DNA of 60,715 nucleotides, filler included, from Stramenopiles sp. TOSAG23-6 (lineage: Eukaryota), in NCBI GenBank assembly GCA_900128565.1. It is 15 parts of 15 records of this genome, joined end to end, with 100 filler letters (N's around TTAATTAATTAA, not from the genome) between each part and the next. Parts side by side here need not be neighbours in the genome. Positions count along the whole stretch, not along the records: positions 16,255 to 20,214 come from LT637312.1; 14 more parts are not named here. One strand, given 5' to 3'. Positions 3,001 to 48,700 of this stretch are shown one piece after another. The position numbers were made by a program, and so were the translations under genes. The number at the start of each line of letters is the position of its first letter. Positions within the stretch are counted from its first letter, which is position 1. The notes under the pieces were generated by a model. It saw only the letters and a program-made list of their open reading frames with translations, ran no database searches and was not told the DNA's origin.

Positions 3001-3971
3001 ACCCAANANAGTCATTTTCTTGATATATCGAGGTACGTAGACTTCTATATTGTCGTGATCTTTGACTATATCTGATAAACTACGAATAATACTTGCATGT
3101 ANACANGCATCNAGTAATCCAGGATGTATNACATCATCNATTATGTCNCTTTGNATNGAATNTTTNTTTGACGACTGACCAAGTAATATTATTTGCTCAT
3201 TTGATTCTGATTTTGTCATAATTTCTTCCATCCATTGAAATGAAGGACCATATTGGAANCCTGCGATTTCAATANTTTTATACATATCAAGTTTATCACT
3301 AGATGATCTGACAAACCCTTCCTCTATGCAATTATCAATGCTTCTTTTAGGTATATTGGTATCATTCTTTTCTATTGAAATAATATATTGACATGAAAAA
3401 TGATCCGTCCATTCTATATTTTTCATGTCATCATTACTAACAATATGAATATATCCAAATTGTACAGTTGAATCCNCTTCGGNAAATGAAGGTGTTACAA
3501 TGATATTAATTTCNGTAGATCNACCAGATATATTAGTTTCTGGNATAACAAGAGCTTCTTTAAATTCAATGTCTTCAAGTTCACATACTGAATTGTTACC
3601 ATAGAGATTCTGCAATATTCCAAAGGCCGTGGATATATAATACATTCCAGGACAAACAGATATATCAAAAATACAGTGATCCGAAAATAACTTTCTCAAA
3701 TATTCGTCTACAGTTATTTTAAATATAACTTTTCCTGTGCTTAGTGGAATATTCAAANGAGTTCCAATTAATGGATGCTCATTTCNATGGACTACATTGG
3801 TANTNANTTCNTTCTTTTCATACCAATACNTTTGNCCGCTCAATACAGTAGTAGGTAAACGAACNCGCTTGGCTCCTTCGATTAGTTGATCCCATTNCAA
3901 AGNTACACCACTCACATGAAGCATTGCNGCTGTTTTACANATATTCTTCCAATCNTTTCCATCTNTCTTCA
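1..3971 (-). CDS. Type I polyketide/fatty-acid synthase fragment (post-AT linker, DH, ER, KR, ACP), intronless, open at both contig ends
   Basis: Manual minus-strand translation: post-AT 'LHVSGV..W..LPTT', DH 'HPLIG...SDHCIFDISVCPG', ER 'VRIHAVGLNFRDVLMTLGMYPG', KR 'VIITGGTGALGL...YAAANAQLD', ACP 'DSPLDSMGLGSLGSVELRNKL'. Absent from the ORF track, probably because it is open at both ends. Confidence 0.9.
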
Positions 3972-4015
3972 NNNNNNNNNNNNNNNNNNNNNNNNNNNNN
4001 NNNNNNNNNNNNNNN

Positions 4016-4027
4016 TTAATTAATTAA
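4016..4027. other. Artificial contig linker N-TTAATTAATTAA-N (stops in six frames); first of 14
   Basis: Same 12-mer between N runs at about 4016, 8078, 12139, 16199, 20259, 24319, 28378, 32437, 36493, 40546, 44595, 48644, 52685, 56725; contig length decreases slowly (size-sorted). Confidence 0.97.
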
Positions 4028-4070
4028 NNNNNNNNNNNNNNNNNNNNNNNNNNNNNNNNNNNNNNNNNNN

Positions 4071-4180
4071 NTTTACTACAAGATTATCATCATTTACTAC
4101 AAGATCATCATCATTTACTACAAGATCATCATCATTTACTACAAGATTATCCTCATTTACTACAAGATCATCATTTACTA
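4071..4180 (-). repeat. 21-bp coding tandem repeat (DDLVVND)
   Basis: About 5 copies of tttactacaagatcatcatca. Confidence 0.85.
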
Positions 4181-7943: not shown

Positions 7944-8219
7944 GTATGTTTTATTTTTTTTCAAATTCGAAGTTTTGTTTTCGTACGAAATTTTGTACCT
8001 AACGATTTTTTTTTTGAAATATTTTTCCAAAATNNNNNNNNNNNNNNNNNNNNNNNNNNNNNNNNNNNNNNNNNNNNTTAATTAATTAANNNNNNNNNNN
8101 NNNNNNNNNNNNNNNNNNNNNNNNNNNNNNNNNAAAATATTTCAAAATAAAATCGTTAGGTACAAAATTTCGTACGAAAAATAAATTCGATTTTTTTGTT
8201 AAAAAAAAATAAAACATAC

Positions 8220-11287: not shown

Positions 11288-12032
11288 CTACAATTTATGT
11301 GTACCTTTTTCTGCCGAGACATGAATCGCTTTACTTCCTTCATTAACTTCACTGGCGCATGTATTTTGGAAAAATATTTCAAAAAATCTAAAAAAAATTG
11401 TTAGGTACAATATTTCGTACGAAAAATAAATTCGAAATTTAAAAAAAAAAATATACATCTTCTGGAATATTATGTCCACAATCTCTAAATACACTCATTT
11501 CGAATACACCTTGCATCTGGGCAACTGTTAGTGGAGTATCTAATCGATCTACACCCGCAATGACTAATAAGATAGGAATACGATATTTGTTTTTTACTAT
11601 TTGTCTATTAGTTGCAGTATCGGAAATTTTCTCTGAAATTGGAATTCCAGTCGCTACAGATATGAATAAGCTTGATAAATTATCATACCATGGATTATGA
11701 AAAAATATTTCAAAAAAAATCGTTAGGTACAAAATTTCGTACGAAAAATAAATAAATAAATCCGAAATTGAAATTGAAATGAAAACGTGCATCCATGCCA
11801 GTATTTTTTTGTGCTTAACAGTGGTGTTTTCCATTCAAATCTAATCATTTTATCTTTATCCGAGGTTGGAGGTGGCACAAAAGGTGGAGGTGGCATTAAA
11901 ATATTCGATGGTATCGGAGTTGTCGTTGAGATTGATGCCTTTCTACTATCATTTATCTCAACCTGACGCAGTTGAGCGGGAACAGATACTCTTGCACTAG
12001 CAACATTCTTTACAAATCCATTCGATAAACTC
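11288..12032 (-). CDS. PPME1: Protein phosphatase methylesterase 1, C-terminal exons
   Basis: Spliced: 'SARVSVPAQL...KYWHGWYDNLSSLF...LVIAGVDRLDTPLTVAQMQGVF...CGHNIPEDAPVKL'; introns 11690-11790 (GC donor) and 11359-11456. Confidence 0.9.
11690..11790 (-). mobile_element. Introner-like intron, GC...AT
   Basis: AT|GCACGTTTT...CATAATCC-AT|; restores PPME1 'YWHGWY'. Confidence 0.8.
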
Positions 12033-12194: not shown

Positions 12195-12249
12195 TAAGCC
12201 TGCAGACGGGACATCACGAAGCAACGTGACATACCATCCTCGGTAAAGG
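12195..12249. repeat. 55-bp direct repeat identical to contig end 16100-16154
   Basis: taagcctgcagacggg...cggtaaagg at both ends of the same contig. Confidence 0.97.
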
Positions 12250-12902
12250 CCACGGATTCCACCATTTCTTAATACTTGCTGTGCACAATGAAAAGAGCTC
12301 TTAAACTTTGATGTCTGAACACTTCCAGTCTGTACTTGCATTTGAATTTTAACAAAGTCACACGGTGTGGTTACGAGAGTTGTCATAAAACCTGCCACAA
12401 GTCCAGCTGTAGTTTGTTTTATAAGACTGTTTGAACTACTCATTGATTCCGATGACCCATATTTTGATAAAAAATTATTTATAATTGGCATTGAACCATT
12501 GTATGAAGCAAATAAAACAGCTTGATATGCTCCGATTCCACATAGTGGAGCAGATAAACCACGCCAAAATGATCGAAACCCCTCATTTTTCAACATTGAC
12601 GAAACGCATTGCCGAGTACTTGGAGAAAAATTTGATCGCGTAGTATCCTGTAGACGAGTCTTTACAACGTCTATGGGATGTCCNGCGATGCAACCTGTGG
12701 CACCCGCTAAAGACCCTGCGATTAAATCGAGTAAAACAACTTTGGCTGTTTCTGTGGGTTCTGCGATTTCTCGGGAGGTTTCTCTTTGTTGCTTTAGATT
12801 TGGACTGCCATGTTCGCGGCATGTGTTTGATGTTGAAGAAATTCCGTAAGTTTTTGATTGCATGCAATTGCGTATGTGTGTTTTTATGTCACAATGCCGC
12901 AA
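12195..12902 (-). CDS. Mitochondrial carrier (SLC25, carnitine/basic amino-acid carrier-like), N-terminal part
   Basis: 'GHPIDVVKTRLQ', 'TPCDFVKIQMQ', 'GLYRG..TLLRDVPS'; continues at 15701-16154 through a 55-bp terminal overlap. Confidence 0.92.
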
Positions 12903-13283
12903 TAATTTGTTTGTTCAAACTGGGTTATGGCCGAATTCTGTGCAGAGTGAGTGTAGTCCTTCCGTTACCCTGATTAGGTAACCGTACACTACGACCACAA
13001 TAAATGTAGGATTTTTCATCTTATATGGAGCAAACCTGTCCGTATTAAATTTTATTTAATATAAAACAAACCTGTTTTTTTTCAGTACGTAGAGCCGGTT
13101 CGTTCGTTATCCGCCCGCCTCTACTCGCCCATGTCGACCTTGGAAATCCAGATCTCCAAGATCGTCAGTGGTGTGTAGTTTTCTAAACTACATTACAATT
13201 AGTTGGACCTTTAGACATTTAGTTGTTATTAGTTCTCTTAAGTGTGGGCATCAACGTGCTGTGGATTTTCATACTGTACTTGA

Positions 13284-15388
13284 TTGATTTTGTCACTTGA
13301 GAAGTCGCGTGGTAACTCAAGTATGGGTCTTTTGGCGGCTTTGGGGACGTTTGGTCTATGTCTTCTATATGTTCTTCTATGGCAAATTTTCCTTTTGACA
13401 ATAGTATTATGTACTCTCAACTTTGCATCTCGTCTCATTGTGTACTTACGACAGTATAATACTAAGTATTATCCCAACGAAAGTTCAACTGACAGTTGGA
13501 ATCTTACAAAGTTCGTGAGCGCTTTTGAAGGAAAGCTTATTAGATTCCTTTGGTTGTTAGCTAGCTTTGTCCCAATGAACCTATTGTTCTTTTTATACCC
13601 TCAAGAGTATCTACAACTTGGCGGTACATCAAAGAAAAATGCGAAATATTTTTTAGTGGAACATCCGAAAGAGACTAAACAGCAGAGTATTGTAGATCAC
13701 GGTGTACGTAAAAGAGTTTCCTCGAAAACATCCATATCTGCTCTAGTTGACGATAATTTAAGCATTGGTAAAAAATCCTCATATGCAAATGCTGATATTC
13801 ATGTAACGAACGTTTCAAAGTTACGCCGTGTGAGAGAATTTCGAAGCCCAAGTTTGTATTCTACTGGTTCTACTGGTCAACTACCAATAGTATCTGCTGA
13901 TACTGAAAATGTACGGCATGATATGAGATATCCCTCAACAAAGAAGAATATGTTTTTTCATAGTTTGGGTGAGGAGCATCGTTGTTGTGATAGAAGGGAT
14001 TGTTGCACTCAAACATGTTTTAAGTCAAAATGTTGCTGCAGTTGGGCAAAGTTTATACTAATTCTTGTATTATCAACTTTTGTTTTAAGTTTTGTATACT
14101 GTGTATACTGTGTGAAATATCCAAGAGGAGTTTCACCGTTCCCTCCCTCATTAGTTCAGTCTATCTCTGGTGAAAATGAAGTATGTCAACAGAGTATACA
14201 TAATAATAATAATAAGTATAGACAACATTCAAAGATACAATTAGATCGAGAGTTAAATCATACATCTTCTGAAGAAAATCCTTTTACAAGAGAGGCTTTT
14301 CGAATACATGTCATTATTTCATCGATTCATCGAATTTCAGATGGACCGTTGAATGCTCTAGCTAAGTCTCTCAAAAATGCAGGAAAAATTAGAAGATTGG
14401 AAGAAACTAGGGCGAAAGCTTTCAATTTGTATCCATTTCCATTACTGATGAATGCAGATATAAAATTTAGTGTGTATAATGCTGAACAAAGTAAAGCTAA
14501 GAGTCATGGACTGAAATTAGAAACTTTTTGTAAAGAAATATTAGAAGATTGCCAAAATTATAAAACACCTGTACATTTGAGTAACGAAGCAATTGAAAGT
14601 AATAATAGTCGTGATAGTTTTGTTGAAACTTCAAGAAAAGCACAACATGTGAAAATTAAATCGAAAACGGATTTGCAAAGAATGTGGAAACAAAAACAAA
14701 AATTTGATACTGCCTATGCGCTGAGGGATACATTGCGACGCAATAAGAAAACAACACATATTTTGTGGCATGAGGATGATACAATTGTTGCAGATCATTT
14801 ATGGAAACGTCTTGGTCCAAGTATTTGCTCATCTAGAATTGTTTGTTTAAGAGCTACGGTGAGTGGTGGTCAGTGTGGTAATGTTGCATATTTGATGCCT
14901 CGAGCATTTGTGTTGCATTTCATTAAAATGCTTGATGTTCATAAGAAATCAGATGTATGTTTTATTTTTTTTCAATTTCGATTTTTTTTCGTACTCAATT
15001 TTGTACCTAACGGGTTTTTTTTTTGAAATATTTTTCCAAAATACATATGACTAGTGATTTTATTCTAATTGCTGCCGCTAGAGAATTTTATAATAATGAG
15101 TTATTGTTATGGGATCCAATAGTTCGCCACGGTGCAGCAAAGAAGTTTTCTTCTCGACCTCATAATACCATCAAACAAATACGTGATGCTAAAAAAGGTG
15201 AGAAACAAGGTTGGTTTGGAGCTCCAGTAGACGGAACAGAAGGTGTTGATGAAACTTTGGGTAATGCATTAGATCGTGAAAAGTATGTTTTAATGAACAC
15301 TGTGAGAAGTGGGTGGTTTTGGTATACTTTCTGGATGCCTGACTTTATAAGGTCAGTGTTTTTCAGAACCCAAATTATCATTTACTAG
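13284..15388 (+). CDS. Membrane-anchored putative glycosyltransferase (GT-A-like), two exons
   Basis: Several TM segments; luminal 'FDTAYALR...HILWHEDD...GNVAYLMPR...DFIL...IVRH'; intron 14955-15046. Start uncertain. Confidence 0.5.
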
Positions 15389-15700
15389 TTATTATTTCAA
15401 TGTAATTTTTTTAGTTATAAATTCTTCTTTAGATAGTTTTTTAAGCTTTTCAATATTAACATTTTTCGTCTGTCAATCTAGGAATATATATCTATAATAT
15501 AAAAGGTACTATATGTAATAAATCCTTGATTTATATAATTAAAGTAGATTGTTACAAATACCAATATATGTGTTGTTTCGTTAAAAAAAATATTATACCA
15601 GAATAACAGACACAAAATAAACCCAAACGGTAGACGTGCAATTTGCAAAGTAGATGAATAATTTTACCAGTGTATTTGAAATCACAGATATTATATATAT

Positions 15701-16154
15701 TCATACACCCAAGTGATCTAAATGTAAATGTATTTTCAAATGCTCATAAGTATAAAATGTAATTGCATTTACCCAGAACCCCCTTGTAGCAACAACAAAT
15801 CCGCCTCTGAAAAAAACCCGCCATCCATTACTCCGTGCCAAAAGACTTTTATAAACAACTCTAATTCTATACAAACATTTTGCAGAGTTCATTGGAGAAG
15901 CCTGGATATTCGTCTTCACAACGTCAATTGGAAGAATACTTAACCACGACATAGAACCAGCAAGGCCCCCTGCTAACATTTCTGGTAGTCCTGGTCTCAT
16001 AGAGGCATTGTTTACTATACTACTATCACTATTATATTCGACTTGTTTTCCCATGTATTTTCTGAAAAGTTTCTTGCATTCTTCATAGATAACAAAATAT
16101 AAGCCTGCAGACGGGACATCACGAAGCAACGTGACATACCATCCTCGGTAAAGG
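15701..16154 (-). CDS. Mitochondrial carrier, C-terminal part of the 12195-12902 gene
   Basis: 'LRDVPSAGLYFVIYE..AGGLAG..LPIDVVKTNIQ..FYTYE'. Confidence 0.92.
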
Positions 16155-16307
16155 NNNNNNNNNNNNNNNNNNNNNNNNNNNNNNNNNNNNNNNNNNNNTT
16201 AATTAATTAANNNNNNNNNNNNNNNNNNNNNNNNNNNNNNNNNNNNNNNNNNNNTACGAAATTTTGTACCTAACGATTTTTTTTTCAAATATTTTTCCAA
16301 AATACAT

Positions 16308-16893
16308 ACGGCTTGCGGAAGCACATGCGCGTTTTATGTGCCGCCACGAAGTTACTGTAGATGATGCTGTAGTGGCTGTACTGCTTGTAGAATCATCTAA
16401 AAACACTCATGATAGTTTAAAAAACTCAACATTACACAATGTATATTTTATTTTTTTTCAATTTCGAATTTATTTTTCGTACGACATTTTGTACCTAACG
16501 AATTTTAGTTTTTTTTTTTTGAAATATTTTTCCAAAATACCTGACTTCCCGGATGATCTTTTAGCAGACACGCAATTTCGTACTACACGAAATATAATAC
16601 TGGATAGATTGAAAGTTCAGTATTCAAAGGATAATAATAGTGTATGTTTTATATGAATTTCTAATTTAAGGTTTTTTTTTTCACACGAAATTTCGTACTT
16701 AACGATTTTTTTTGAAATATTTTTCACAATACGTTCTTCACATGTAAATCAGGAAAATTATTTCCCCCAAAATTACCAGTCTTATCCTCATGATAGTAAT
16801 AGCGATAGTAGATATAGTAGACATCAAGGTAGCATGTTATCTCAAAGTAATAGTGATACTCAACGAAGTTGGGCTTCTTTTCTCGATGATTAA
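16308..16893 (+). CDS. MCM9: MCM9-like helicase, C-terminal exons
   Basis: 'IRLAEAHARFMCRHEVTVDDAVVAVLLVESS...LH.DFP'; introns 16441-16542 and 16642-16734; stop at 16891. Confidence 0.8.
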
Positions 16894-17110: not shown

Positions 17111-19987
17111 CTATGCATGCATATTCGCTAACCGGACATCATCTTTCAATTTCTTAATCAATGCTTCGTATTTGTCCATTGCAGATTCTTCATGCTTCTG
17201 TAAACGTTGCTCCAGGATTTGAATGCGAAACATCATATCCATACAAAACTTCTCATATTCTTCATCTGCTCCTTGGTCTTGATCACGACTTCTTTGGAAC
17301 GCGGCTTGTCGTTTGGCTAATTTAGCATTTTCTTTATCCAATCGGTCCTGTATTATATTTGCCCTTTCAACTAATCTTTCTTTTAAAGCTCGAAGACAAA
17401 GATCGTTTACTTTGAGCGCTTCTTCCTTACTTAGCTCAAGCTTTCCTTCTTCCAAATATGGCGATAAATAGTCAAGGTTTTCGTCCTTGTCTTGTCCAGA
17501 TTCTACGGATGTATTTCCTTTACTAGATTGAGTTTTATCCAAAACTTTGTCAAAAATTGACTTTACAAGTTCAACATTGGCATTTTCTCTTCCACGTACT
17601 GACAATATCTCTCCTAATTCTCGCTTCGATTCACGAATGGCCTGGTAACATTCTTTTTCAGCTTTTAACATAGCTTGAAACTCAGGACTCAATGTCGTTT
17701 CGTTTTCTCCATCACCACCAAATGCTTCTGCACNNNNNGCATTCTCTTTATTGAATGTTCGACTTTTTTGAGTAATCATACCTTTCGCATTAAAGAAAGT
17801 TTCATTAATTTTAGCATCACCTCTTGGCTGTAAATAAAAAATACGCTCATTAATTTGATTCTCAGGTGACACAGAGTTGTCCATTTTTTTGTATTTTTGA
17901 CTCATTTTATTTATAATTAGTTCACTACTGCCTCCACCCCCAGGTAATGTAAAAGTCTGAGGCGACTGTCCTCCATTTTCATCTTTTTTTACCTCAACAA
18001 ATCTTGATAATAATGTATTGTGAAAACTATTTTAAATTCGAAATTCGTTAGGTACAAAATTTTCAATGAAAAAAAATAAATTCGAAATTCCTTGATAATA
18101 ATGTACATCTATCTTCTCGCCAACCAAATATTTCAGTTATTTCTTTGCCAAAAATCTCTTCTATATAATCAAGTCCATCAAAGCGAGCGGCAGAAAAAAA
18201 TTTCAGTTTTGCCCACTGGCCCATTTTTGTTTCAAGTTCACGTAGTTTATTTGGTCTTCCGGGTGAAAATTTTTCATGTTTTCTTGCTTCGAGCGGAAAT
18301 GAAGTTCTTGAATCAAGTTTATCCGAACGATGTTTGAATAACTCGGTTATTTTTATTGGGACAGTCCTGGCAGAATCTTCAAATTCTGTAATGCGGGATA
18401 CAAGCCCTTTAGGGTGTAAATATTCAGCAAAAAGCTCCACTTTAGATTTTCTGTATAGTACTGTGTGGTCACGTACTGTTTTGCCATACTTTTTTGCATA
18501 TGCAGTTTGAGTAATGACAGGTTTGTTACTCCAGGACACTGGACAAGCTAGAAAATTATCTGGTTCTTTCGGTGTATTCGTACCTTCATCTCCACTTCCT
18601 TCATCCATGATTTCCATATCATTTTCATCGCCTTTGACACTTGATGCGTTGGAATTTGATTCAACTTCCAACAAAGCATTTATTTGTGCTTTGATTTCTT
18701 TTGTAGTAAACACGAATTCCCAATGTTGAGAATTGGCAAAATCCCATTCAACATTGAGTACATCAGAAGTATATTTTATTTCATCTGATTTATCCTGATT
18801 ACTTTTCTTTTTTCCCTTCTTCTTTTGTGACTCAGCTTTATTTAAATCAGTCGCTGATGTTGAATCTGGAGTTTGCATATTCACAAAATAATTCGAATCA
18901 TTCCACACAGATTCTATACCATAATATGGACAATTCGTACCACTTACGGGATAGAAACGACCTGTAGTAGGTTCAATAAAAGNNNNNNNNNNNNNNNNNN
19001 NNNNNNNNNNNNNNTTTCGTTTACCTGGACAGAGTACATGTACTGTAAAAAAATATTACAATTTTTTTTTATTAGGTACAAAATTTCAAACGAAAAAAAA
19101 AAATAAATTCGAAAATAAAAAAAATATTGAAAACATACCACCCAACAATGGACACGTCGGTAATCCTTTGAAAGTTTGTCATTTTCAGATGATAGTGTGT
19201 CAGAGTCGTCTTCCATTAAAAGTTCATTAGCTTTTTTCAAAGCTAGTTCGGCTGCAGCTGCTTTACGATCCTGAGCTAACAAAAATTTTGATTTAAAATT
19301 GAAACGAACAGGTAACTTATATGGAGAATTCTCCCCCACAGTGCCTTTAGTTTGGTCATTAGATGATTCTGCTGAAGATTCTCCTTCAGATGTAGTATCT
19401 AAATCAGGTCTCATCATAGACGATTGATTCAATTTGCAAATATCTTCACTGGCATAGCCATACACACAATATGCATCATAACCGGCACCAAGTAGAAACG
19501 AACACAACAAATTCGAAAATTCAAAAGAATCAGCGATTTGCCAATTAACCACTCTACTTGGCGAAGCAATACAATTTGGTGGCTCATTGGCATCTTCTAG
19601 GGGCTCATATTCTAAGAAGCCAGACACAAAGGTAGCGAGTTCCTGTGCATAGTATAACTTCTCCCAACAAAGTAATGTTGGTCGTAATGTAGTACAAACA
19701 AATTTTGGAATGTCACACTCATTAACCGGGTTAAGAAAGAGTTTTCGTCGTAACGGGTAGAGTTCTTTGAAACGTGCTTGAAATTTTTTCACGTGTGCAA
19801 TACAGTTCTTCTCTTTTGCATTGTTAATTCCGTATTTTTTTGGTAGAGCTGTTGCATCCCATTGGCTTCGACCTTTCAACCTAGCAAGTCGCTCTGTTTT
19901 GGTATTGAACACCCCAGTCCCTAGACAATTTTTCTTATCAATCATCACTTCGGGTAATTCCTCATTTAGAACTACTTCAGATGACAT
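17111..19987 (-). CDS. DRC7: Dynein regulatory complex subunit 7 (CCDC135)
   Basis: 'PVNECDIPKFVCTTLRPT', 'LLCSFLLGAGYDAYCVYGYA', 'RVHCWV', 'WNDSNYFVNMQ', 'LVERANIIQDRL', 'MFRIQILEQRL'; introns 19038-19138, 18013-18106. Confidence 0.93.
19038..19138 (-). mobile_element. Introner-like intron GT...AT in DRC7
   Basis: GTG|GTATGT...TACAGTAC-AT|GTA gives HCWVVLCPGKR; the nearby CAG would frameshift. Confidence 0.85.
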
Positions 19988-20400
19988 ATTAGAAGTATCA
20001 CTGGCCTCCTAAACTAAAGGAAGCAATAGATTAGGTGCTCACAAGGCTACTAGATACTGTAGACTACACTCCAAAACAAGTTCCAAAATGTAACGTTTTT
20101 TCATACGCGGTCAAAAAACGAAAAGATTTGCCAAATAAGTCAATAAGATCTGTCATCCTCCAGAAGATATAATTAAAGCTAATCATCCATGACATTGTCT
20201 GCAGAGAACAACATNNNNNNNNNNNNNNNNNNNNNNNNNNNNNNNNNNNNNNNNNNNNTTAATTAATTAANNNNNNNNNNNNNNNNNNNNNNNNNNNNNN
20301 NNNNNNNNNNNNNNAAAAAAAATCTAAAAAAATTGTTAGGTACAAAATTTCGTACGAAAAAAAAAACTAAATTCAATTTCCAAAAAAAAATAAAACATAC

Positions 20401-23311
20401 ATGAACTTTTCATAAATGCAATTTCAAAATAGTTTGAGGACGGATTTTTCGACGCGACAGCTTTGGCTAAGATGGATTGCCGAATTTCAGCATTATTTTT
20501 GGATCTTATATTTACACGAAATATATGTCTATCAGAATAAGCCCAAATAATATCACCATTACATGTAGTACTCGAATGGAATGGTACGTTGCCATATTGA
20601 CTAGAATTCATATAATTATTAGATTTGACCATACATAAGTTACCTTTGCTAATATCACCATTAATATTTTTTTTTGTACCTTTTTTTGTAGCCTTATTTT
20701 GGTCATACACATCAATCCGCCCGGAGCGTAGACATACAAAATATTTCTGAGCTGGGATAAATGATAATACTACACTATCGACTATATTATTTTGTTTCGT
20801 CGAAATTGAATCTTTAGTAACTTTCGTATCAACTTTCGTATCAACTTTCATACCTAACGAATTTTGAAGTACAGCGTCCCCATGGAAAAACATTTTAGAA
20901 TCTACCATAACAACATCTCCAGGGTTTTTCATACCTAATGATAACTTTCCATAGTAAATACCTACGCCTGTCAATACTGCAAATGAATCAATGTTTTTCT
21001 CTGTAGAAGAAAATACTCGAAGTTCAGGAGTGAACCCGGTACCCCACGATTCCATTGGTGTATGAATTTCAGTAAATTCTTCAGAAGACTTTTTTATTTG
21101 ATGTACAGAGCCACTGTCTGCTGTTTTGTAAAGAAAATTAAAATTTGAAATTGGTCAAAAAAAAAGTTGGCTTACATCTAAAAAAAATCTTTTTTGTTTA
21201 GGTACAAAATTTTGTATGAAAAAAAAATAAATTTGAAATTCATGATGAAAACGTACAAGAATAAAACCGAAACATTTGGCTGAAATCGGGCCCACCAATT
21301 GTGTCAGAATGTAAACCAATAAATTGATAAATTCGATTTGACTCTGGGACGAGGGATTTCCCTTTATTTTGTATTGCATTCTTTTCATCTCGATGCGATA
21401 CCATTGCAAGTACTAAATATCGTATATCACTAGGGTTAGGGTTTGTGTTATTCATTTGTGAAAATCGTGTTTCATTTGAATTTGAAAAAGACATATAATA
21501 CAAACCCATTACTAAACCACCATCTATAATTGAATGAACTTTGTCAAGTCTTTGGGCTCCCGTCAAAGAAAAGATATATTGTGAAAAGATTTTTTTTTAT
21601 ACAAAAGAAATTGTTAAGTACGGAATTTTCATAGTAAAAAAAAATTGTGAAAAGATTTTTTTTTATACAAAAGAAATTGGTCAGTACGGAATTTTCATAG
21701 TAAAAAAAATGAAATTTATTATGGAAACGTACACAGCTTCATAAATATCTCCACTACGCATGCCCAAAAGTACCGAATCTGAAATCTGTACATTAGAATT
21801 TATTCTAAAACTATTTTTTTTCTTACATTGTTCCGACCCCCATGAAATGTGAAAAAATATTTTTTTTTTGTAATTGTTTTGTTAGGTACAAAATTTGGTA
21901 CAAAATTTTCATAGTAAAAAAAAATTGAAAACATACATGCGACACTTTCTACTATTTCAGACTGTATTTTTCTTAATTCTTCAAATTCATTGCGATCTCT
22001 ATGCAAATGATACGTTGTACCACTTGACATAGCAATGAGTACATGAATTCCTGTTGGATCGATAAATACTTTATTGACCACATGCTTAGGAGGACTAGGG
22101 TTAGGGTTTTCANNNNNNNNNNNNNNNNNNNNNNNNNNNNNNNNNNNNNNNNNNNNNNNNNNNNNNNNNNNNNNNNNNNNNNNNNNNNNNNNNNNNNNNN
22201 NNNNNNNNNNNNNNNNNNNNNNNNNNNNNNNNNNNNNNNNNNNNNNNNNNNNNNNNNNNNNNNNNNNNNNNNNNNNNNNTTTTTTTTTTTTTTTTTTTTT
22301 TTTTTTTTGGGTCAAAATTTTCTCAAAAAATTAAATTAATTAAATTCGAAATTCATAATAAAAACGCACTTGAGTGATGGGATGACGAACCCCACGACGG
22401 AGAAGAGATTCAAACAATTTTGATGTATTCACTCGCTGTACAGAAAATAAAGCATTCGAGTAGACTTTACTATTGGCTTCAATATGGAGATATTTTGTAG
22501 AGGTATGAGATAAATTGTAAACAAATTTTGTATTCAATTTCTTCTTTTGTGTCTTTTTTTTCCTTTGGAGTGAAAATGTTTTATTCGTATTCACAGAATT
22601 TCTTGTGTCTGCTAGGGCATCCTCATCCTCACCCATAGAGAGTCGTCTACGTCTTTCCTCATTAGTGTTTGTTATATAATTAATTGTGCCAAGAACGCTT
22701 TGACGTTGTGGATAGTCATCTGGTTGTGTCTGAAAAGGGTTAGTAGTTTTTTTTTGAGAGACAATACCTCTATCATTTTTGAAAGTCTTTACTGTAGTGA
22801 ACGGAGTCATCTCATCTGAAACGCTTTGCGATTTTGACAATTCATGATTTTTAGGTCCGGCATATTGAGGATGCATACTTTGTTTAAACGGATTTGAAAC
22901 ATTTGATCGCAATGTATTATGGTTACTAAAGGGATTCAATTCCCCAGAAACCGGTGCATGATTACGTATATCATTTGATTGTAATGCATTGGGATTGCTA
23001 AACGGATTTGTAGCCCTGGTAGTTGGCACATGATTAGGTACACTAGGAAGTGACATGTCCACTGTATTAGTATTAGTATTACTAAGAAAAGGATTACGTC
23101 TATCCATCTTATTACCTCCCTCAACAGTATTCGTTTGATTTGACATAACAGTGTTAATGGTGTGACTAGGTACACTTGGTAAGGACATATCCAATGCAGG
23201 TTTGAAGCCACGCGAAAAGGGATTAGTTGCTTTAGCTACATTTGCATTATTATTTCCCGGAATATTCTTCTTCGCAAAAGGGTTTCCTCGATTTGGTCCT
23301 TCGGATGACAT
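20401..23311 (-). CDS. VPS18: Vacuolar protein sorting 18 (Pep3)-like, N-terminal exons
   Basis: 'VNKVFIDPTGIHVLIAM...IVESVAWG', 'VLLGMRSGDIYEA', 'IYQFIG', 'LTGVGIYYG', 'IWAYSDRHIFRV'; introns 21842-21936, 21574-21732, 21121-21256, donors at 22369 and 20400. Confidence 0.8.
21121..21256 (-). mobile_element. Same-family intron with canonical GT...AG ends
   Basis: TT|GTACGT...TTACAAAAC-AG|; AG occupies the position where most copies have AT; frame FYSSDSGSV. Confidence 0.75.
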
Positions 23312-24426: not shown

Positions 24427-24950
24427 GTGCAAGCAGAAGAAGCTAGTATTTTAGCACAAAATCAAAGGAGAGAAAGCAATAATGTTTTACATTACCAGTC
24501 TTCTTTTTGTGATTGTAACCCCAACCCTAACAACAGTGACGATAAAATGTTTTATTTAAATTTGTTGTCGAGTTGTAGTGATAATTCCGAATGTTCACCT
24601 GAAGATTCGATGTATGTTTTTTTTTTTTTTAAATTTGAAATTGAATTTATTTTTTCGTACGAAATTTTGTACCTAACAAATTTTAGTTTTTTTTTTAATA
24701 TTTTTCCACAGTATTTACTCTACAGAAGAAATAATGATGTATTTGAAAACGGTGATTCAAATAGTATAGATTTTAATATTTCTAATTTTCAAAAGAATTT
24801 CGAAAATTCTAAAAATAATACAACAAAACCATTTAAAGAAATTTCAGGATTCTGCCCTAGGTGTAATCGGATGATATTAAATCCATGTTCAGTTGCTAAT
24901 AATGATATTGAAAGTTTAGAAAAGGCTCTTTCAGCTGATGAGGCTATGTA
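24427..24950 (+). CDS. Internal/terminal exons of a hypothetical protein
   Basis: Bounded by family introns (ends 24426; 24612-24716; starts about 24948); 'FCPRCNR'. Confidence 0.45.
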
Positions 24951-32917: not shown

Positions 32918-34451
32918 TTATAAAAGTGCACCTTCACCCAAAACATCCAGCATACTCCAGAACTTTCTATCATGTATCGGTGAAAAATATTTTTTTTTTG
33001 GATAAAAATCGTTAGGTACAAAATTTCGTACGTTTTGAAATGAATGATGAAAACGTACATGTTTCGCTTGTATAATCCGATACAAAAATTCAACTGCATC
33101 GACAGTGCCTTCTGCATAGACACCACGACCACAAACATTATGTTCAAATGCTAACTCAACAGTTCCATCTGGCGAAGTCAATTCATACCGATGGTAGGCA
33201 TGTCCATTTATATGATCAAGTAATGTAAAAAAATATATTTTTTTTTGATTTCAACTCATTCGTTAGGTACAAAATTTTTATAGTCATAAAAAAATTTACA
33301 TGTAAAACGTATGAGGAAACATGTATAATTATTTTTTGTTTAGGTACAAAATTTCGTAGAAAAAAAACAAATCATGATGAAAACATACCGCGGGAATGCC
33401 ATATTCGAGTTGAGCTGAAGGTTCACGAATCATTTCAATCTCATCTACTAAAATATCTGCATTTATTTTGTTCTTTATATCAGTATTTTCTGTATTTTGT
33501 ATATTCCCAATATTTTGCCGTTTATTTTGGAGACCTAATTGTGCTAAAGAATAAACAATAGCTTTAGCAGTATGTATTGTGAAAAAATATTTTTTTTGTA
33601 AAATTTGTTAGGTACAAAATTTTTATAAAAAAAAAATATATAAAAAATTGAAAAAAAATAAAACATACACCTGAGGTGTCAGCTTTACCAAATTGATGTG
33701 ACTCAACTACTCGCAGATTATATCCATCTAGAGCGCCTCCAAANTTCTTTGATGCAGCAGCAATCATTGCTTGCATCAAAACGATTGGTTTGCCCATATT
33801 TGGCGCGACGACAGCGTACATGTATTTTGGGAAAATATTTAAAAAAAATTGAAATTTGTTAGGTACATAATTTCCTATGAAAAAAAACTTAAATTCGAAA
33901 TTCATAACGAAAACGTGCATTTCGTTATCGTAATTATTTTCTTCACTGGAGATATCCAAGCTGGATTTTTCATCTAGAACAATTTGACGTAAGGAAGCGG
34001 CATCTTTTTCAGTGTGAAAGGTTGTACCCATGACAAAGGGTAGACGATTTTTAGTGTACCATTCTGCATTACCTAAAGCTGCAGATGGATGTGTATAGTC
34101 TACGGCTAGCAGTGTTCTGCCACTTTTTTTCACTTGACGACAAATTTCAGTCCACGCTTCAACTCTTTCAGAAGGTTTGACCAGCGCAACATTTACATCA
34201 TCTATGCAGAAACTTGATGGGTCAGTTTCTTCACCCGTAAAAGAAAATGGTAAAAGACTCTCAGGACCAAAACGGGAGAGTACTGCTTGAGATACACTTA
34301 TTCCCATCCGACCAGGAACACCATTGACCATCACGACAATCTTATCACTTGACAAAGAGAATGAACGAGCACCATCGGAAAATAAAGATAATGTGCGAGC
34401 AGAAACATTATTGAAAACAGACGCACTGCATCGCATAATCGATGAGTTCAT
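32918..34451 (-). CDS. dapB: 4-hydroxy-tetrahydrodipicolinate reductase (plant-type), 5 exons, N-terminal targeting-like extension
   Basis: 'VMVNGVPGRMG', 'VDYTHP', 'PFVMGTT', 'YAVVAPNMGK', 'ESHQFGKADTSGTAKA', 'GHAYH..TSPDGTV..FEHNVCGRGVYAEGTVDAV'; introns 33820-33918, 33572-33668, 33218-33388, 32972-33058. Confidence 0.93.
33572..33668 (-). mobile_element. Introner-like intron GT...AT inside the DapB DTSG|TAK motif
   Basis: GGT|GTATGT...CACAATAC-AT|ACT restores DTSGTAK. Confidence 0.9.
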
Positions 34452-36601: not shown

Positions 36602-38495
36602 ATGAAAAGAGCCGTTGCCTATCTTTTACCATTTATGGAGAAAGAAAAACAATTAAAGCAACAAAATTCTAAGGAAATCAGTTCATACGCTGGAAGTATA
36701 TTACTCGCTACTGTCAAAGGCGATGTCCATGATATTGGAAAAAACATTGTTGGGGTTGTTCTTGGTTGTAATAACTACAAAATTCATGTATGTTTTATTT
36801 TTTTTTTTTTGTATGAATTTATTTTTTTTTCGTAGGAAATTTTGTACCTAACATTTTTTTTTTTTTTTTTGAAATATTTTTCCAAAATATATGATCTTGG
36901 AGTGATGGTTTCGTGTGAAACTATTCTATCTGAAGCTAAACGATTAAATGTTGATATCATTGGATTATCCGGATTAATTACTCCTTCATTAGATGAAATG
37001 TGCCACGTGGCAAAGGAAATGAAACGTGCAGGCCTTGACATTCCTTTGCTAATAGGTGGGGCAACTACATCTCGAATGCATACAGCTGTTAAAATCGCAC
37101 CACATTATTGTACTGTAGACCATCCCGTCCTACATGTGTTGGATGCATCAAAATCGGTTGTCGTTGTTTCTTCTTTATTAAATCCAAATAAAGATGTTAG
37201 AACAGATTTTGTGGAAGATCAAATGGAGTTATATGAAGATATGCGTGAAGACTATTATCAAGGACTTTCTGATAGATCATTGATGTCTTTTACAAAAGCA
37301 TGCAAACATCGATTAAACATCAATTGGAAGACGTGTACAGTGAATGATAATCAGTCAAACGTACCGAAAGAAAAGAATAGTAAATCATTGGAATGTGTGA
37401 TTCAGACACCTCCTCTTAACTCTGGTCAAGTTCACACTGAAATAGGAAAGGTTGAACTTGAAAGTCTTTTGCCTTTTATAGATTGGCATCCTTTTTTTCA
37501 AACTTGGGAGTTACGTGGTCGATATCCAAATCGAGGATTTCCACAAATATTCAATGATAAAATAGTTGGCGAAGAAGCAAAGAAGTTGTTTAATGATGTA
37601 CGTTTTATTTTTTTTAAATTTGATTTTTTTTTCGTACGAAATTTTGTACCTAACGAAAAAACATTTGAAATATTTTTCCAAAATACATGCACAAGAGATG
37701 ATAAAAGAAATTATTAAAGGAAAGTTATTGGAACTAAGAGCTGTACATGCTGTATATCCTGCAAATGCAGTGACTTCAAATGTTAGTCTTGTCGAGGCTG
37801 GCAATGTCACGAATGATATTGATGTGTATGCCAATGAAAATGAAAGGGAAAATGGAAAAGTTGCAGCAAAGTTTTGTATGTTACGGCAGCAACTTGATAC
37901 TGAAACTGATTCGCCAATGTTGTCTTTGGCAGATTTTGTTGCTCCCCGTAAAACTGATCAAAATGGTCAATTACTGTATAGAGATCACTTGGGAATGTTT
38001 GTAGTTTCAGTATTTGGTTGTGAAAAATTAGTTGCTCGTTATGAAGAGGAGCTTGATGATTATAAGAAGATTATGGTGCAAGCAATATCAGATAGATTTG
38101 CTGAAGCGTATGCTGAAGAATTACATCGCCGGATTAGACAAAAAACGTGGGGATACGCAAAAGAAGAGCAACTCAATCATTCTGAACTATTAAAACTAAA
38201 GTACCAAGGTATTAGACCAGCTCCGGGATATCCGTCACAACCCGACCATACGGAAAAAAAAACAATGTGGAAATTAATGGATGTAGAAGCAAAATCTGGA
38301 ATTATTTTAACTGACTCACTTGCTATGAAGCCAGCATCATCAGTTTCAGCTTTAGTGTTTGGAAATGCTGTCTCTGAATATTTTGCTGTTGGTCATATAA
38401 ATAAAGATCAAGTGGAATCATATTCAATTAGGAAGAGTATGACCGTCAGTGAATGTGAAAAGTGGTTAGCTCCAATACTAAATTACGATCCATAA
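36602..38495 (+). CDS. metH: Cobalamin-dependent methionine synthase, C-terminal half
   Basis: '[25 protein letters not shown]', '[13 protein letters not shown]', 'LIGGATTS', '[19 protein letters not shown]'; introns 36788-36892, 37598-37688. Confidence 0.97.
36788..36892 (+). mobile_element. Introner-like intron GT...AT in MetH
   Basis: CAT|GTATGT...CCAAAATAT-AT|GAT gives NNYKIHDLGVMV. Confidence 0.9.
37598..37688 (+). mobile_element. Introner-like intron GT...AT in MetH, no AG anywhere in it
   Basis: GAT|GTACGT...CCAAAATAC-AT|GCA gives [12 protein letters not shown]. Confidence 0.9.
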
Positions 38496-43623: not shown

Positions 43624-44491
43624 ATGTCTTCTGATACTGCATTAGCTGTAACAAATGAAGATCTGTATGCAATATTAGGTGTGTCTCGCAGTGCAACTCA
43701 ATCGGAGATAAAGAAATCATTTCGTAAGCTAGCTCTCAAAAATCATCCTGACAAAGGTGGAAATCCTGAAACATTTAAGAGCATTTCTACAGCTTATGCT
43801 ATTCTCAGTGATCCTGAGAAGCGACGCAAGTATGATGTGGGTGGTACAGATGCTATTGATATGGAAGGCATAAATATTAGTGAACTTGGCTTTGGTGGTA
43901 AATTAGTGACTGCCTTATTTAGTAAGGTTGGTCTTGAACTTCCTACAACCGTACCTGAGTCTATTTTACAGCAAGCTCGTGATGGACCCAAGAGTTGTAT
44001 GATTTTGGAATCTGGTGCAGATTGCGGTCATCGCAATTCTGTCGCCAAAGGTACTGCACACTTCTTTAAAGTTAGAGTGACTGCTGAGATGTTAAAACAA
44101 GGGTTTGTTGTGCGATTAACCTCGACTAATGATAGTAAGTTAAAGTTGCTTCGTTTTGCCTCTGAAGGTGACGGACGTTTGGTATGGGCTCTCAACACAC
44201 ATAAATCTAAATATCATGGTACGTATGCTGATATGCGTTTTCTTCCATTTGATCAATATGAATACGAACAGGGACTTAATCCTGCAGCCATTAGTAACAT
44301 GTATATTTTCATCATGAATTTCGAATTTATTTTTTTTTCGTACGAAAATTTTGTCGTAACGATTTTTTTTTTGAAATACTTTTTCACAGTACATGAAGGA
44401 AGAATTATTTTGTAGACTAGATTCATATCGTTTACAACCAAGATCTGAAAGAGTTCCTGGAATGTGGATGTTTGCAGCGATGGGTAATAAT
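43624..44491 (+). CDS. DnaJ protein, ARG1/ATJ15-16-like, 3' truncated
   Basis: J-domain HPD; '[14 protein letters not shown]', 'AHFF', 'SKLKLLRF', 'LFCRLD'; intron 44301-44394. Confidence 0.82.
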
Positions 44492-47700: not shown

Positions 47701-48472
47701 TTTTTTTTTAATTTTTAATTTTTTTTTTCATACGAAATTTTGTACCTAACAAATTTTTTAAATTTTTTTTTTAAATATTTTTCTAAAATACATGATTGCA
47801 AATTGTGAGATTGATTCATTAAAAGATGAGTTTGAAAAAAGTTTTCCAAATCTTTTGGAAGAACAAGATAACAGATGGAATATACTTAAATTAGAATTTC
47901 AAGAAAACTTTTTATTGTTTACACAAAAAGAAGAAGAAATTCAAACTCAACTGTCAAGTATGTTTTATTTTTTTTTCAATTTTGAATTTATTTTTTTTTT
48001 TTGAAAATTTTGTACCTAACAAATTTTCAAAATTTTTTTTTTGAAATATTTTCCAAAGTACAAAAGTTTCAACATCCAAAGAAAAACACTTATTAGAAGA
48101 ATCATCTCAATCAAATATCACTCATTTTGAGAAATATAAAGAAGATTTTTTTAAAACACATCCAGGAGTTATTCCATATATATCAAATGAAGAAAAAAAA
48201 AATGCACAAAAACAAATAATACGTTTCCATTAGGAATTATCAAAAAAAAAAAAAAAAAATGTTTTTTCATAGTAAATTTTGTACCTAACAAAAACAAATC
48301 AATTTTTTTTTTTCATATTTTTTTACATTATTTCATACAAAAGTAAAATATTGGAATCAAATGATCATGGAACACGAAATACAATACAATTTATTATCAC
48401 GTGATAAACGAGCAAAATCATTAACAGATTATATGGATTATAATGCTGCATTACGTTCAGAAGTCGATACAT
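44765..48472 (+). CDS. Large Q/K/A-rich coiled-coil protein, internal exons
   Basis: Frame kept across introns 45949-46101, 47148-47463, 47690-47793, 47958-48063, 48219-48333. Confidence 0.65.
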
Positions 48473-48599: not shown

Positions 48600-48700
48600 N
48601 NNNNNNNNNNNNNNNNNNNNNNNNNNNNNNNNNNNNNNNNNNNTTAATTAATTAANNNNNNNNNNNNNNNNNNNNNNNNNNNNNNNNNNNNNNNNNNNNA

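What the first reader, a model, noticed from the sequence alone, without database searches (positions are those of the whole stretch)
19038..19138. Available YAG acceptors are apparently skipped
The DRC7 intron ends TTTTTACAG-TACAT. Using the textbook CAG puts the next exon out of frame; ending at CAT 5 nt later gives RVHCWVVLCPGKR, matching DRC7 spacing. The same happens at 44301-44394 (CACAG-TACAT, DnaJ) and 24612-24716 (CACAG-TATTT; the AG option hits a stop). AG seems ignored, not merely dispensable, suggesting acceptor choice by position or structure.
Basis: partly seen in the sequence, partly recalled or inferred. Interest (0 to 1): 0.8.

Follow-up and report, generated by a model that had tools for sequence, protein, structure and literature searches.

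The report
Introns ending in CAT, skipping CAG
In this marine protist almost every intron is a copy of one transposon-like element that ends in CAT instead of the textbook AG, and a CAG five bases upstream in some copies appears to go unused.

Summary
At DRC7 (19038-19138, minus strand) all 16 homologs inspected keep the tryptophan-to-KR spacing that only GTATGT...CAT gives. At DnaJ (44301-44394) both homologs run without a gap across ...[12 protein letters not shown]. The third locus (24612-24716) stays open, because canonical AG ends 9 and 12 nt downstream are also in frame.

The window is 15 short contigs of a MAST-3-like marine stramenopile. Nearly all its introns are copies of one roughly 100-nt introner-like element. 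It has a GTAYGT start, a TACCTAAC branch motif, a T tract and an ...ACAT end, usually flanked by an AT direct repeat. Cutting at the family end joins the longest flanking frames in 25 of 27 copies. One such junction (18013-18106) is seen directly in a seawater metatranscriptome contig.

The "skipped" CAG is a single A-to-G variant at position -6 of the family tail, present in 4 of 24 tabulated copies. One other copy carries CAG exactly at the family end and is in frame there. So AG is not unusable; what counts is the position in the element.

No junction read counts could be obtained, so minor use of the CAG is not excluded.

The parts
19038..19138 (-). L1: DRC7 intron, family copy, GTATGT...TACAGTACAT, 101 nt
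   Evidence: The junction is supported by 16 of 16 homologs.
19043..19045 (-). CAG lying 5 nt upstream of the L1 intron end, not used for the conserved reading frame
19139..20008 (-). DRC7 exon upstream of L1, ending ...RVHCWV
18107..19037 (-). DRC7 exon downstream of L1, starting VLCPGKR. It holds the N run 18983-19014.
18013..18106 (-). Next DRC7 intron, GTACAT...CACAATACAT, with no AG at its end. The junction is seen in RNA.
   Evidence: table 5 and table 8 record 22: run X3, a 343-nt contig whose two pieces abut, shorter side 93 nt. Ends are AT..AC on the plus strand, which is GT..AT on the minus strand, with 2 nt of ambiguity. Sequence.
44301..44394 (+). L3: DnaJ-protein intron, family copy, GTATAT...CACAGTACAT, 94 nt. 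The CAG is at 44387-44389.
24612..24716 (+). L2: family copy, GTATGT...CCACAGTATTT. The CAG is at 24709-24711. The true 3' end is unresolved between 24716, 24725 and 24728.
47958..48063 (+). Fourth copy with AG at the same tail position (...CCAAAGTACAA). The AG is out of frame. The family end, and an AG 3 nt downstream, are in frame.
37598..37688 (+). Methionine synthase intron, GTACGT...CCAAAATACAT. The junction D|AQEM runs without a gap against 6 of 6 homologs.
33572..33668 (-). Intron in a dihydrodipicolinate (HTPA) reductase gene that lacks the upstream AT. The exon ends ...KADTSG, and the alignments to the two solved plant enzymes shown (of 4 hits) end exactly there. This favours the GT..AT register over a 2-nt shift.
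21121..21256 (-). Family copy whose family-end position reads CAG instead of CAT, and is in frame there

Best explanation
The three loci are copies of one introner-like (MITE-like) element that supplies nearly all introns in this MAST-3-like stramenopile.

Each copy lies on the coding strand and carries:
- a yeast-like 5' splice site, GTAYGT;
- an internal palindrome;
- a TACCTAAC branch-type motif;
- a T-rich tract;
- a tail ending ...ACAT.

Most copies are flanked by an AT direct repeat. Removing the element plus one AT therefore restores the original coding sequence. I infer that the terminal AT is the target-site duplication co-opted as the 3' boundary.

The intron is removed from RNA as GT...AT. 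This is shown for one intron by an RNA contig and for four others by protein alignment. The cut falls at the family-end position whether that position reads CAT (the rule) or CAG (one copy).

The CAG in L1, L2 and L3 is an A-to-G change at tail position -6. It creates an AG 5 nt too early, and the productive mRNA does not use it.

How the end is picked is inferred, not shown. The likeliest mechanism is recognition of the tail motif itself. This may be helped by pairing of the tail (TACAT) with the 5' end (ATGTA), in which G at -6 would still pair with U at +4 as a wobble. It would need a spliceosome whose 3' site recognition no longer depends on AG, as described for Fritillaria.
For: Family:
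- The palindromic 11-mer gives 143 matches against 23.5 expected.
- There are 58 nhmmer hits at E<1e-3 in 60.7 kb.
- Among 24 complete copies: G at +1 in 24 of 24, T at +2 in 22 of 24, last base T in 23 of 24, A at -2 in 21 of 24, C at -3 in 22 of 24, AT just upstream in 20 of 24.
- All 24 copies lie on the strand with the longer flanking reading frames.

Frame:
- The family end is in frame in 22 of 24 copies and in 3 of 3 more.
- The two misses are a copy 8 nt from a contig end and one behind a micro-exon.

Junctions:
- The RNA contig joins 18012|18107.
- Methionine synthase: 6 of 6 homologs run without a gap.
- DRC7: 16 of 16.
- DnaJ: 2 of 2.
- The HTPA reductase exon ends exactly at the conserved SG in the 2 alignments shown, of 4 hits.

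AG variant:
- G at -6 preceded by A occurs in 4 of 24 copies from different subfamilies. It is the commonest purine change in the last 10 bases, which is not what selection against a usable acceptor would give.
- At L1 the RNA contig stops matching at 19034. That is 8 nt short of where a CAG-spliced or unspliced molecule would still match (record 6). This is weak evidence.
Against: - There are no junction read counts, so the CAG could be used in a minority of transcripts.
- At L1 the RNA contig ends 3 nt short of the predicted junction. Its 15 unaligned letters were not shown, so a slightly different junction or a variant base cannot be told apart.
- L2 and 47958-48063 have in-frame canonical alternatives.
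- In 20 of 24 copies the AT repeat leaves the register undetermined among GT..AT, TG..CA and AT..AC. Only two informative copies settle it.
- The pairing idea has no covariation support (variable positions read by eye).
- The whole genome and its spliceosome genes could not be examined.
- Only 60 kb was seen, so 'nearly all introns' is an extrapolation.
Confidence: 0.7

Rival explanations
1. Ordinary GT-AG splicing. The real introns use the CAG with a donor 4 nt further in (GTAT|GTTTT), or an AG further downstream, and the reader's CAT ends are artefacts of frame guessing.
For: GT(+4)...CAG is in frame at L1, L2 and 47958 (and by hand). AG ends at +9 and +12 are in frame at L2, and at +21 at L3. 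An existing gene model for the methionine synthase locus (P0123) was built this way.
Against: - At L1 this adds 3 residues inside a motif whose length is fixed in 16 of 16 homologs.
- At L3 the +4 position is AT, not GT, and the +21 AG deletes residues conserved in 2 of 2 homologs.
- The P0123 model loses one residue and changes another at a site where 6 of 6 homologs agree with the CAT junction.
- 11 of 25 copies scored have no in-frame AG from -14 to +30. Two of those eleven sit beside N runs, which end the frame count.
- The RNA contig junction at 18012|18107 has no AG.
Confidence: 0.05
2. The introns are AT...AC introns, of U12 type or the rare U2-type AT-AC class. The true cut lies 2 nt upstream at both ends, inside the AT repeat.
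For: In 20 of 24 copies the AT direct repeat makes ATGTA...TAC|AT an equally valid description ('both 2', 50). AT-AC termini are a known, workable pair (recalled).
Against: - At L1 the upstream bases are TG. The shifted register would give W-D where 16 of 16 homologs have W-V.
- At 33668 the shift would replace the conserved G of ...SG.
- The 5' sequence is GTAYGT, not the ATATCCTT-type U12 box. The branch-like motif lies 33-44 nt from the end rather than close to it. The U12 consensus is recalled.
Confidence: 0.08
3. Both ends are used. A share of transcripts is spliced at the CAG, shifts frame and is degraded, so AG is leaky rather than ignored.
For: Nothing here measures isoform ratios. The copy with CAG at the family end (21121) is in frame there, which suggests the machinery can cut after AG.
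Against: The AG-creating change is the most frequent purine substitution in the tail: G in 5 of 24 copies at that position, 4 of them forming AG, against 0-1 of 24 at other A positions. It also sits in conserved genes. That argues against a large cost. The numbers are small.
Confidence: 0.2
4. The elements are removed by a non-spliceosomal route. This could be structure-guided excision as in euglenid nonconventional introns, or precise DNA excision bounded by the AT repeat as in ciliate eliminated sequences.
For: The terminal inverted repeat and 2-nt direct repeat are present, and the ends pair in 8 of 11 folds.
Against: - 24 of 24 copies are co-oriented with the coding strand, which DNA excision would not require.
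- The conserved GTAYGT, TACCTAAC and T tract are spliceosomal signals.
- The element is abundant in RNA-library contigs, though DNA carry-over is not excluded.
Confidence: 0.04

Closest known systems
Introners: transposon-derived spliceosomal introns, such as those of Micromonas and Aureococcus
   Same: Many near-identical short copies sit in unrelated genes, always in sense orientation. They have terminal inverted and direct repeats, no coding capacity, and their removal restores the frame.
   Different: The Amoebophrya paper says the Micromonas and Aureococcus introners have canonical splicing motifs (passages seen in PMC7789003). The 2025 introner survey lists only AG and AC as expected 3' ends and discarded families with unfamiliar sites unless transcripts confirmed them (passage seen in PMC12130899). 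Here the 3' end is AT.
Non-canonical introns of Fritillaria (larvacean tunicates)
   Same: Most introns do not end in AG. 3' AT is the commonest end in F. pellucida (44%) and F. borealis (34%). The last three bases form a Y-A-Y triplet, and a T-rich tract is kept (PMC13326754, section 21 read in full). Here CAT is such a triplet. The MITE origin of the Fritillaria introns is recalled from the 2019 paper, which I did not read here.
   Different: The main Fritillaria classes start with AG (AG/AC, AG/AT). Here the start is GT in 22 of 24 and GC in 2 of 24, with a strong GTAYGT. The organism is a stramenopile protist, not an animal. One element family dominates.
Amoebophrya non-canonical introner elements
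   Same: A marine protist whose introns carry inverted repeats at the ends and 3-5 nt direct repeats over the boundaries (passages in PMC7789003).
   Different: Amoebophrya shows no consensus terminal dinucleotides, many families, and no U1 snRNA was detected. Here the boundaries are uniform and a canonical 5' site and branch motif are kept.
U12-type / AT-AC introns
   Same: An AT...AC description fits 20 of 24 copies because of the AT repeat.
   Different: The 5' box and the branch-site spacing do not match, and the two informative copies favour GT..AT.

Membership tests
Introner (transposon-derived intron family) | Many highly similar copies serving as introns in unrelated genes | tested here: met
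   58 nhmmer hits at E<1e-3 in 60.7 kb across 15 contigs. The genes include DRC7, DnaJ, methionine synthase, MEMO1-like and HTPA reductase.
Introner (transposon-derived intron family) | Sense orientation, with removal restoring the reading frame | tested here: met
   24 of 24 are co-oriented with the coding strand. 25 of 27 are in frame. Five junctions were checked by RNA or homology.
Introner (transposon-derived intron family) | Transposon hallmarks: terminal inverted repeat and target-site duplication | tested here: inconclusive
   An AT direct repeat is present in 20 of 24 copies, and GTA...TAC termini in most. No autonomous partner, empty site or insertion polymorphism could be examined.
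Fritillaria-type non-canonical U2 introns | The last three intron bases form a Y-A-Y triplet | tested here: met
   CAT or TAT ends 23 of the 27 copies tabulated.
Fritillaria-type non-canonical U2 introns | Non-GT 5' end (AG in the major classes) | tested here: not met
   The start is GT in 22 of 24 and GC in 2 of 24.
Fritillaria-type non-canonical U2 introns | Duplicated, divergent U2AF subunits | not testable with these tools
   No whole genome is held for this window.
U12-type introns | Conserved 5' box (A/G)TATCCTT. This consensus is recalled. | tested here: not met
   The 5' consensus is GTA[TC][GA]TTT.
U12-type introns | Branch site close to the 3' end. The spacing is recalled. | tested here: not met
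   TACCTAA[CT] lies 33-44 nt from the end in 21 of 24 copies.
Euglenid nonconventional introns | No conserved borders or pyrimidine tract, with the ends held by a stem. This definition is recalled. | tested here: not met
   The borders, branch motif and T tract are conserved. The ends can pair in 8 of 11 folds.
DNA-level eliminated sequences (ciliate type) | Excision independent of gene orientation | tested here: not met
   24 of 24 copies are in sense orientation.

The most novel reading that the evidence does not exclude
A lineage of uncultured marine stramenopiles (MAST-3-like) has been colonised by one transposon-like introner whose 3' boundary is its AT target-site duplication. Its spliceosome now routinely ends introns at ...ACAT. 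It chooses the site by the element's tail context, or by pairing of the tail with the 5' end, rather than by scanning for the first AG, so a well-placed CAG is passed over. That would be a second, independent origin, outside tunicates, of genome-wide splicing that does not depend on AG. It would keep a fully canonical 5' site and branch motif.
Probability: 0.45. Interest if true: 0.85.

Novelty: new variant of a known kind. Interest (0 to 1): 0.66.

Why it matters
Terminal AG is among the most conserved signals in eukaryotic gene expression. The only case I found in the literature searched here where most introns lack it while a normal-looking spliceosome is kept is the Fritillaria lineage. 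A protist with uniform GT...AT introns, a clear branch motif, and natural variants that place a CAG 5 nt upstream or exactly at the end would be a clean system. It would allow asking how the second splicing step picks its site.

There is also a practical side. Gene finders that assume GT-AG mis-build these genes. An existing model of the methionine synthase locus (P0123) forces a GT-AG pair at this intron. It also deletes three exon stretches that start with GT and end with AG (the third after a 1-nt shift), one of which holds residues conserved in all six homologs.

MAST-3 relatives are abundant ocean grazers or parasites known mainly from single-cell genomes. Their gene counts and functional inventories may therefore be underestimated.

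Tried and rejected
Only the contig holding L1 could be laid, so L2 and L3 have no RNA evidence.
- At L1 the one contig reaching the junction (X1 record 6) aligns only to 19034, and its 15 loose letters were not listed. This is inconclusive.
- The huge depth over intron copies comes from the repeat family and says nothing about L1.
- Two metagenome scans found nothing: the DnaJ exon as protein and a 24-nt element core.
- The Rfam scan of the window gave 0 matches.
- The ESM Atlas search gave family but no taxon.
- No whole genome is held, so spliceosome genes could not be checked.
- Earlier findings of this scan: nothing.
- A first frame test that measured the downstream frame 30 nt past the end gave 19 of 25 in frame. 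It mis-set two family ends by 2 nt (42844 and 53887) and treated N as a stop, so I replaced it with the cleaner test.
- Terminal-stem covariation: the few variable positions show no compensatory changes. GC starts at +2 face C or A at -4. This was read by eye, so the structure idea stays untested.
- The exon downstream of 33572 did not hit the reductase in the solved-structure search. It gave only spurious armadillo repeats.

Literature:
- No paper in the searched library holds 'introner' together with 'MAST-3'.
- None holds the phrase 'GT-AT introns'.
- Three MAST genome papers were checked with 'find'. [quoted passage not shown] PMC8163842 has 'intron' 0 times. PMC12614181 has 'intron' 0 times.
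- A 2026 preprint mentions introns only as a genome fraction.
Full report
**What the window is.** The 60.7-kb window is not one stretch of a chromosome. It is 15 contigs of 3.9-4.0 kb, sorted by length and joined by spacers of 44 N, a 12-nt stop linker and 44 N.
- It is AT-rich: C plus G make up 19,666 of 58,914 called bases.
- A methionine synthase exon (36893-37597) was scored at 90% identity to a EukProt coding sequence whose source-given name carries a MAST-3-type label (P0123).
- Aligned in full, P0123 is identical to the window apart from gene-model differences.
- The best named DRC7 hits are pelagophytes and oomycetes.
- Four seawater metatranscriptome runs hold near-identical exon contigs.
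- I therefore treat the organism as a MAST-3-like marine stramenopile.

**The observation.**
- L1 lies on the minus strand, 19138 to 19038: GTATGT...TTTTTACAGTACAT followed by GTACTCTG.
- L3 is 44301-44394: GTATAT...CACAGTACAT followed by GAAGG.
- L2 is 24612-24716: GTATGT...CCACAGTATTT followed by ACTCTACAG.
- With the obvious donor, the CAG end is out of frame in all three.

These are not three odd introns. A palindromic 11-mer from their middle occurs 143 times with up to 2 mismatches, against 23.5 expected. A profile built from 11 copies finds 58 hits at E<1e-3.

I tabulated 24 complete copies:
- They start G-[T/C]-A-[T/C]-[G/A]-T-T-T: G in 24 of 24, T at +2 in 22 of 24.
- 21 of 24 carry TACCTAA[CT], lying 33-44 nt from the end. 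A T-rich tract follows it.
- They end ...A-C-A-T: T at -1 in 23 of 24, A at -2 in 21, C at -3 in 22.
- The two bases before the GT are AT in 20 of 24, and the base after the end is G in 15 of 24.
- None of the 24 ends in AG.
- All 24 lie on the strand with the longer flanking open frames.

**Is the CAT end real?** There are three lines of evidence.
- *Frame.* Cutting from the GT (or GC) to the family end links the longest upstream and longest downstream frames in 22 of 24 copies. Chance is 1/3, giving a binomial P of about 4e-9. It also holds in 3 of 3 further copies on another contig. The two misses cannot be scored: one lies 8 nt from a contig end, the other behind a micro-exon.
- *RNA.* A 343-nt contig from run X3 joins 18012 directly to 18107, with 93 nt on the shorter side. 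It skips a 94-nt family copy in the same DRC7 gene. The skipped ends read AT..AC on the plus strand, which is GT..AT on the coding strand, with 2 nt of ambiguity from the AT repeat (sequence). That copy has no AG at its end.
- *Homology.* The methionine synthase intron 37598-37688 gives ...[14 protein letters not shown], which runs without a gap against 6 of 6 homologs inspected, out of 120 listed.

**The cited loci.**
- *L1.* I built six alternative junctions.
  - Only GTATGT...CAT gives H-C-W-V-V-L-C-P-G-K-R.
  - Of the 16 DRC7 homologs I fetched, out of 120 listed, 14 match H.W-5-G.R.
  - The two pelagophyte sequences (WVMIRGFKR, WVLVKGFKR) keep the same W-to-KR distance.
  - The canonical option GT(+4)...CAG adds three residues.
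  - A 5-nt slide to reach the CAG destroys the conserved W-V.
  - A 2-nt slide (the AT..AC type register) turns the invariant V into D.
- *L3.* The two homologs found read ...[17 protein letters not shown]... and ...QPEALDNLGQELFLRLN.... The window reads ...[17 protein letters not shown]....
  - The CAG end gives an early stop.
  - The only canonical pair, with an AG 21 nt downstream, would delete the conserved block.
- *L2.* This locus is not settled.
  - The family end is in frame.
  - So are AG ends at +9 and +12 and the GT(+4)/CAG pair (worked out by hand).
  - The tail there (TATTT) has lost the A at -2.
  - The protein is low in complexity, so I spent no search on it.

**Register.** Because of the AT repeat, 20 of 24 copies can be described equally well as GT..AT or AT..AC. 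Four lack the upstream AT, and two of those are informative.
- L1 is covered above.
- At 33668-33572 the upstream exon ends ...KADTSG. The alignments to the two solved plant HTPA reductases shown, of 4 hits, end exactly on the matching ...SG.
- Both favour GT..AT.

**The skipped CAG in context.** In the family tail the commonest forms are CCAAAATACAT and CACAATACAT. L1, L2, L3 and a fourth copy (47958-48063) carry G at -6 after A at -7.
- This is a single transition that creates AG 5 nt before the end.
- A possible fifth copy lies at a contig start (tail ending near 56893) and cannot be scored.
- The four copies come from different subfamilies.
- G is found at this position in 5 of 24 copies, 4 of them forming AG. 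G occurs in 0-1 of 24 at the other A positions of the last ten bases.
- If the AG were an efficient acceptor it would shift the frame of conserved genes and should be depleted. It is not. The numbers are small.
- One copy (21256-21121) has CAG in place of CAT exactly at the family end and is in frame there.
- AG therefore seems usable at the right place and unused at the wrong place. The site, not the dinucleotide, is what is recognised.

**How the site might be set.**
- A ruler from the branch motif is unlikely, because the distance ranges from 33 to 44 nt.
- 'First AT' cannot be the rule either, since AAT and TAT occur upstream in the same tails.
- The termini form an inverted repeat: (C)ATGTA at the 5' junction and TACAT(G) at the 3' junction. 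They pair in 8 of 11 minimum-energy folds.
- In that helix G+1 faces C-3, and U+4 faces A or G at -6. The AG-creating change would keep a wobble pair and bury the AG.
- This is inference. The paired positions hardly vary, and the few variants are not compensated (read by eye).
- The AT direct repeat and the GTA...TAC termini fit a MITE-like origin in which the intron is the element plus one copy of its target duplication. That too is inferred.

**Comparison with what is known.**
- *Fritillaria.* A 2026 paper (PMC13326754, section 21 read in full) reports 95% non-GT/AG introns. It also reports a Y-A-Y triplet ending the intron, 3' AT as the commonest end, and divergent U2AF paralogues. That is the closest parallel in how the introns work. 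But those introns mostly start with AG, and the organism is an animal.
- *Introners in algae.* These are described as having canonical sites (passage in PMC7789003).
- *Introner surveys.* A 2025 survey expected AG or AC at the 3' end (passage in PMC12130899).
- *Amoebophrya.* Its introners have no consensus ends.
- *MAST-3.* I found nothing on such introns in MAST-3 or other stramenopiles (searches; papers checked). Supplements were closed, and subscription journals are not in the library.
- *Recalled only.* The 2016 and 2022 introner papers and the 2019 Fritillaria paper are cited from memory and were not seen here.

**Limits.**
- There are no junction read counts.
- Only one RNA junction was seen, and it is not at a CAG-bearing copy.
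- The contig at L1 is inconclusive.
- Only 60 kb of the genome was seen.
- The spliceosome genes were not examined.

**Verdict.** The larger finding is a stramenopile introner family with GT...AT boundaries.

Noticed in passing
whole window; spacers at 3972-4071, 8034-8133, and so on: The window is 15 separate contigs (3971 down to 3935 nt, sorted by length) joined by N44-TTAATTAATTAA-N44 spacers. Features cannot be read across a spacer.
   Followed up: yes
18983-19014: The 32-N run inside the DRC7 exon is probably only 14 nt long. An RNA-library contig lacks 18 of these positions (table 4), and homologs have 6 residues between GKR and FIEP. That count fits 14 nt, not 32.
   Followed up: partly
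36893-38492: An existing gene model for this methionine synthase (P0123) is identical to the window except in two ways. It forces a GT(+4)...AG pair at the 37598-37688 intron. It also deletes three exon stretches (37340-37405, 37770-37796, 37923-37982) that start with GT and end with AG, the third after a 1-nt shift. The third holds the block SLADFVAP, which all six homologs inspected have.
   Followed up: yes
12195-16154: This contig has the same 40+ nt at its head and tail, inside a mitochondrial-carrier-like gene (family named by eye only). It may be a circularised or tandem assembly artefact.
   Followed up: no
16255-16782, 17971-18102, 19027-19158: In the poly-A metatranscriptome contigs the intron-element regions have summed depths in the thousands, against single digits over exons. 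The element family, or unspliced or excised copies of it, is therefore abundant in these libraries. DNA carry-over is not excluded.
   Followed up: no
41952-43350: A MEMO1-like gene (E 8e-71 to solved human MEMO1) continues through exons of about 15 and 70 nt separated by family introns. The first of these introns starts TATACG instead of GTAYGT and seems to hold two element copies in tandem.
   Followed up: partly
18013-18106 (minus strand): The 5' part of this intron carries a 15-nt copy (TACATTATTATCAAG) of the sequence spanning its own 3' junction. It looks as if part of the target was duplicated with the insertion.
   Followed up: no
21574-21732 (minus strand): This family intron has an internal tandem duplication of roughly 60 nt, including the branch-like motif. 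It ends TAT and is still in frame.
   Followed up: partly
11690-11790 and 33820-33918 (minus strand): Two family copies start GCACGT, so they have a GC rather than a GT donor. Both are in frame with the CAT end.
   Followed up: partly
1-4023 (minus strand) and 48651-52688 (minus strand): Two very long open frames of about 1340 aa each contain no family introns. One looks like a polyketide-synthase-type protein and the other like a cysteine-rich repeat protein. Both names are by eye only.
   Followed up: no
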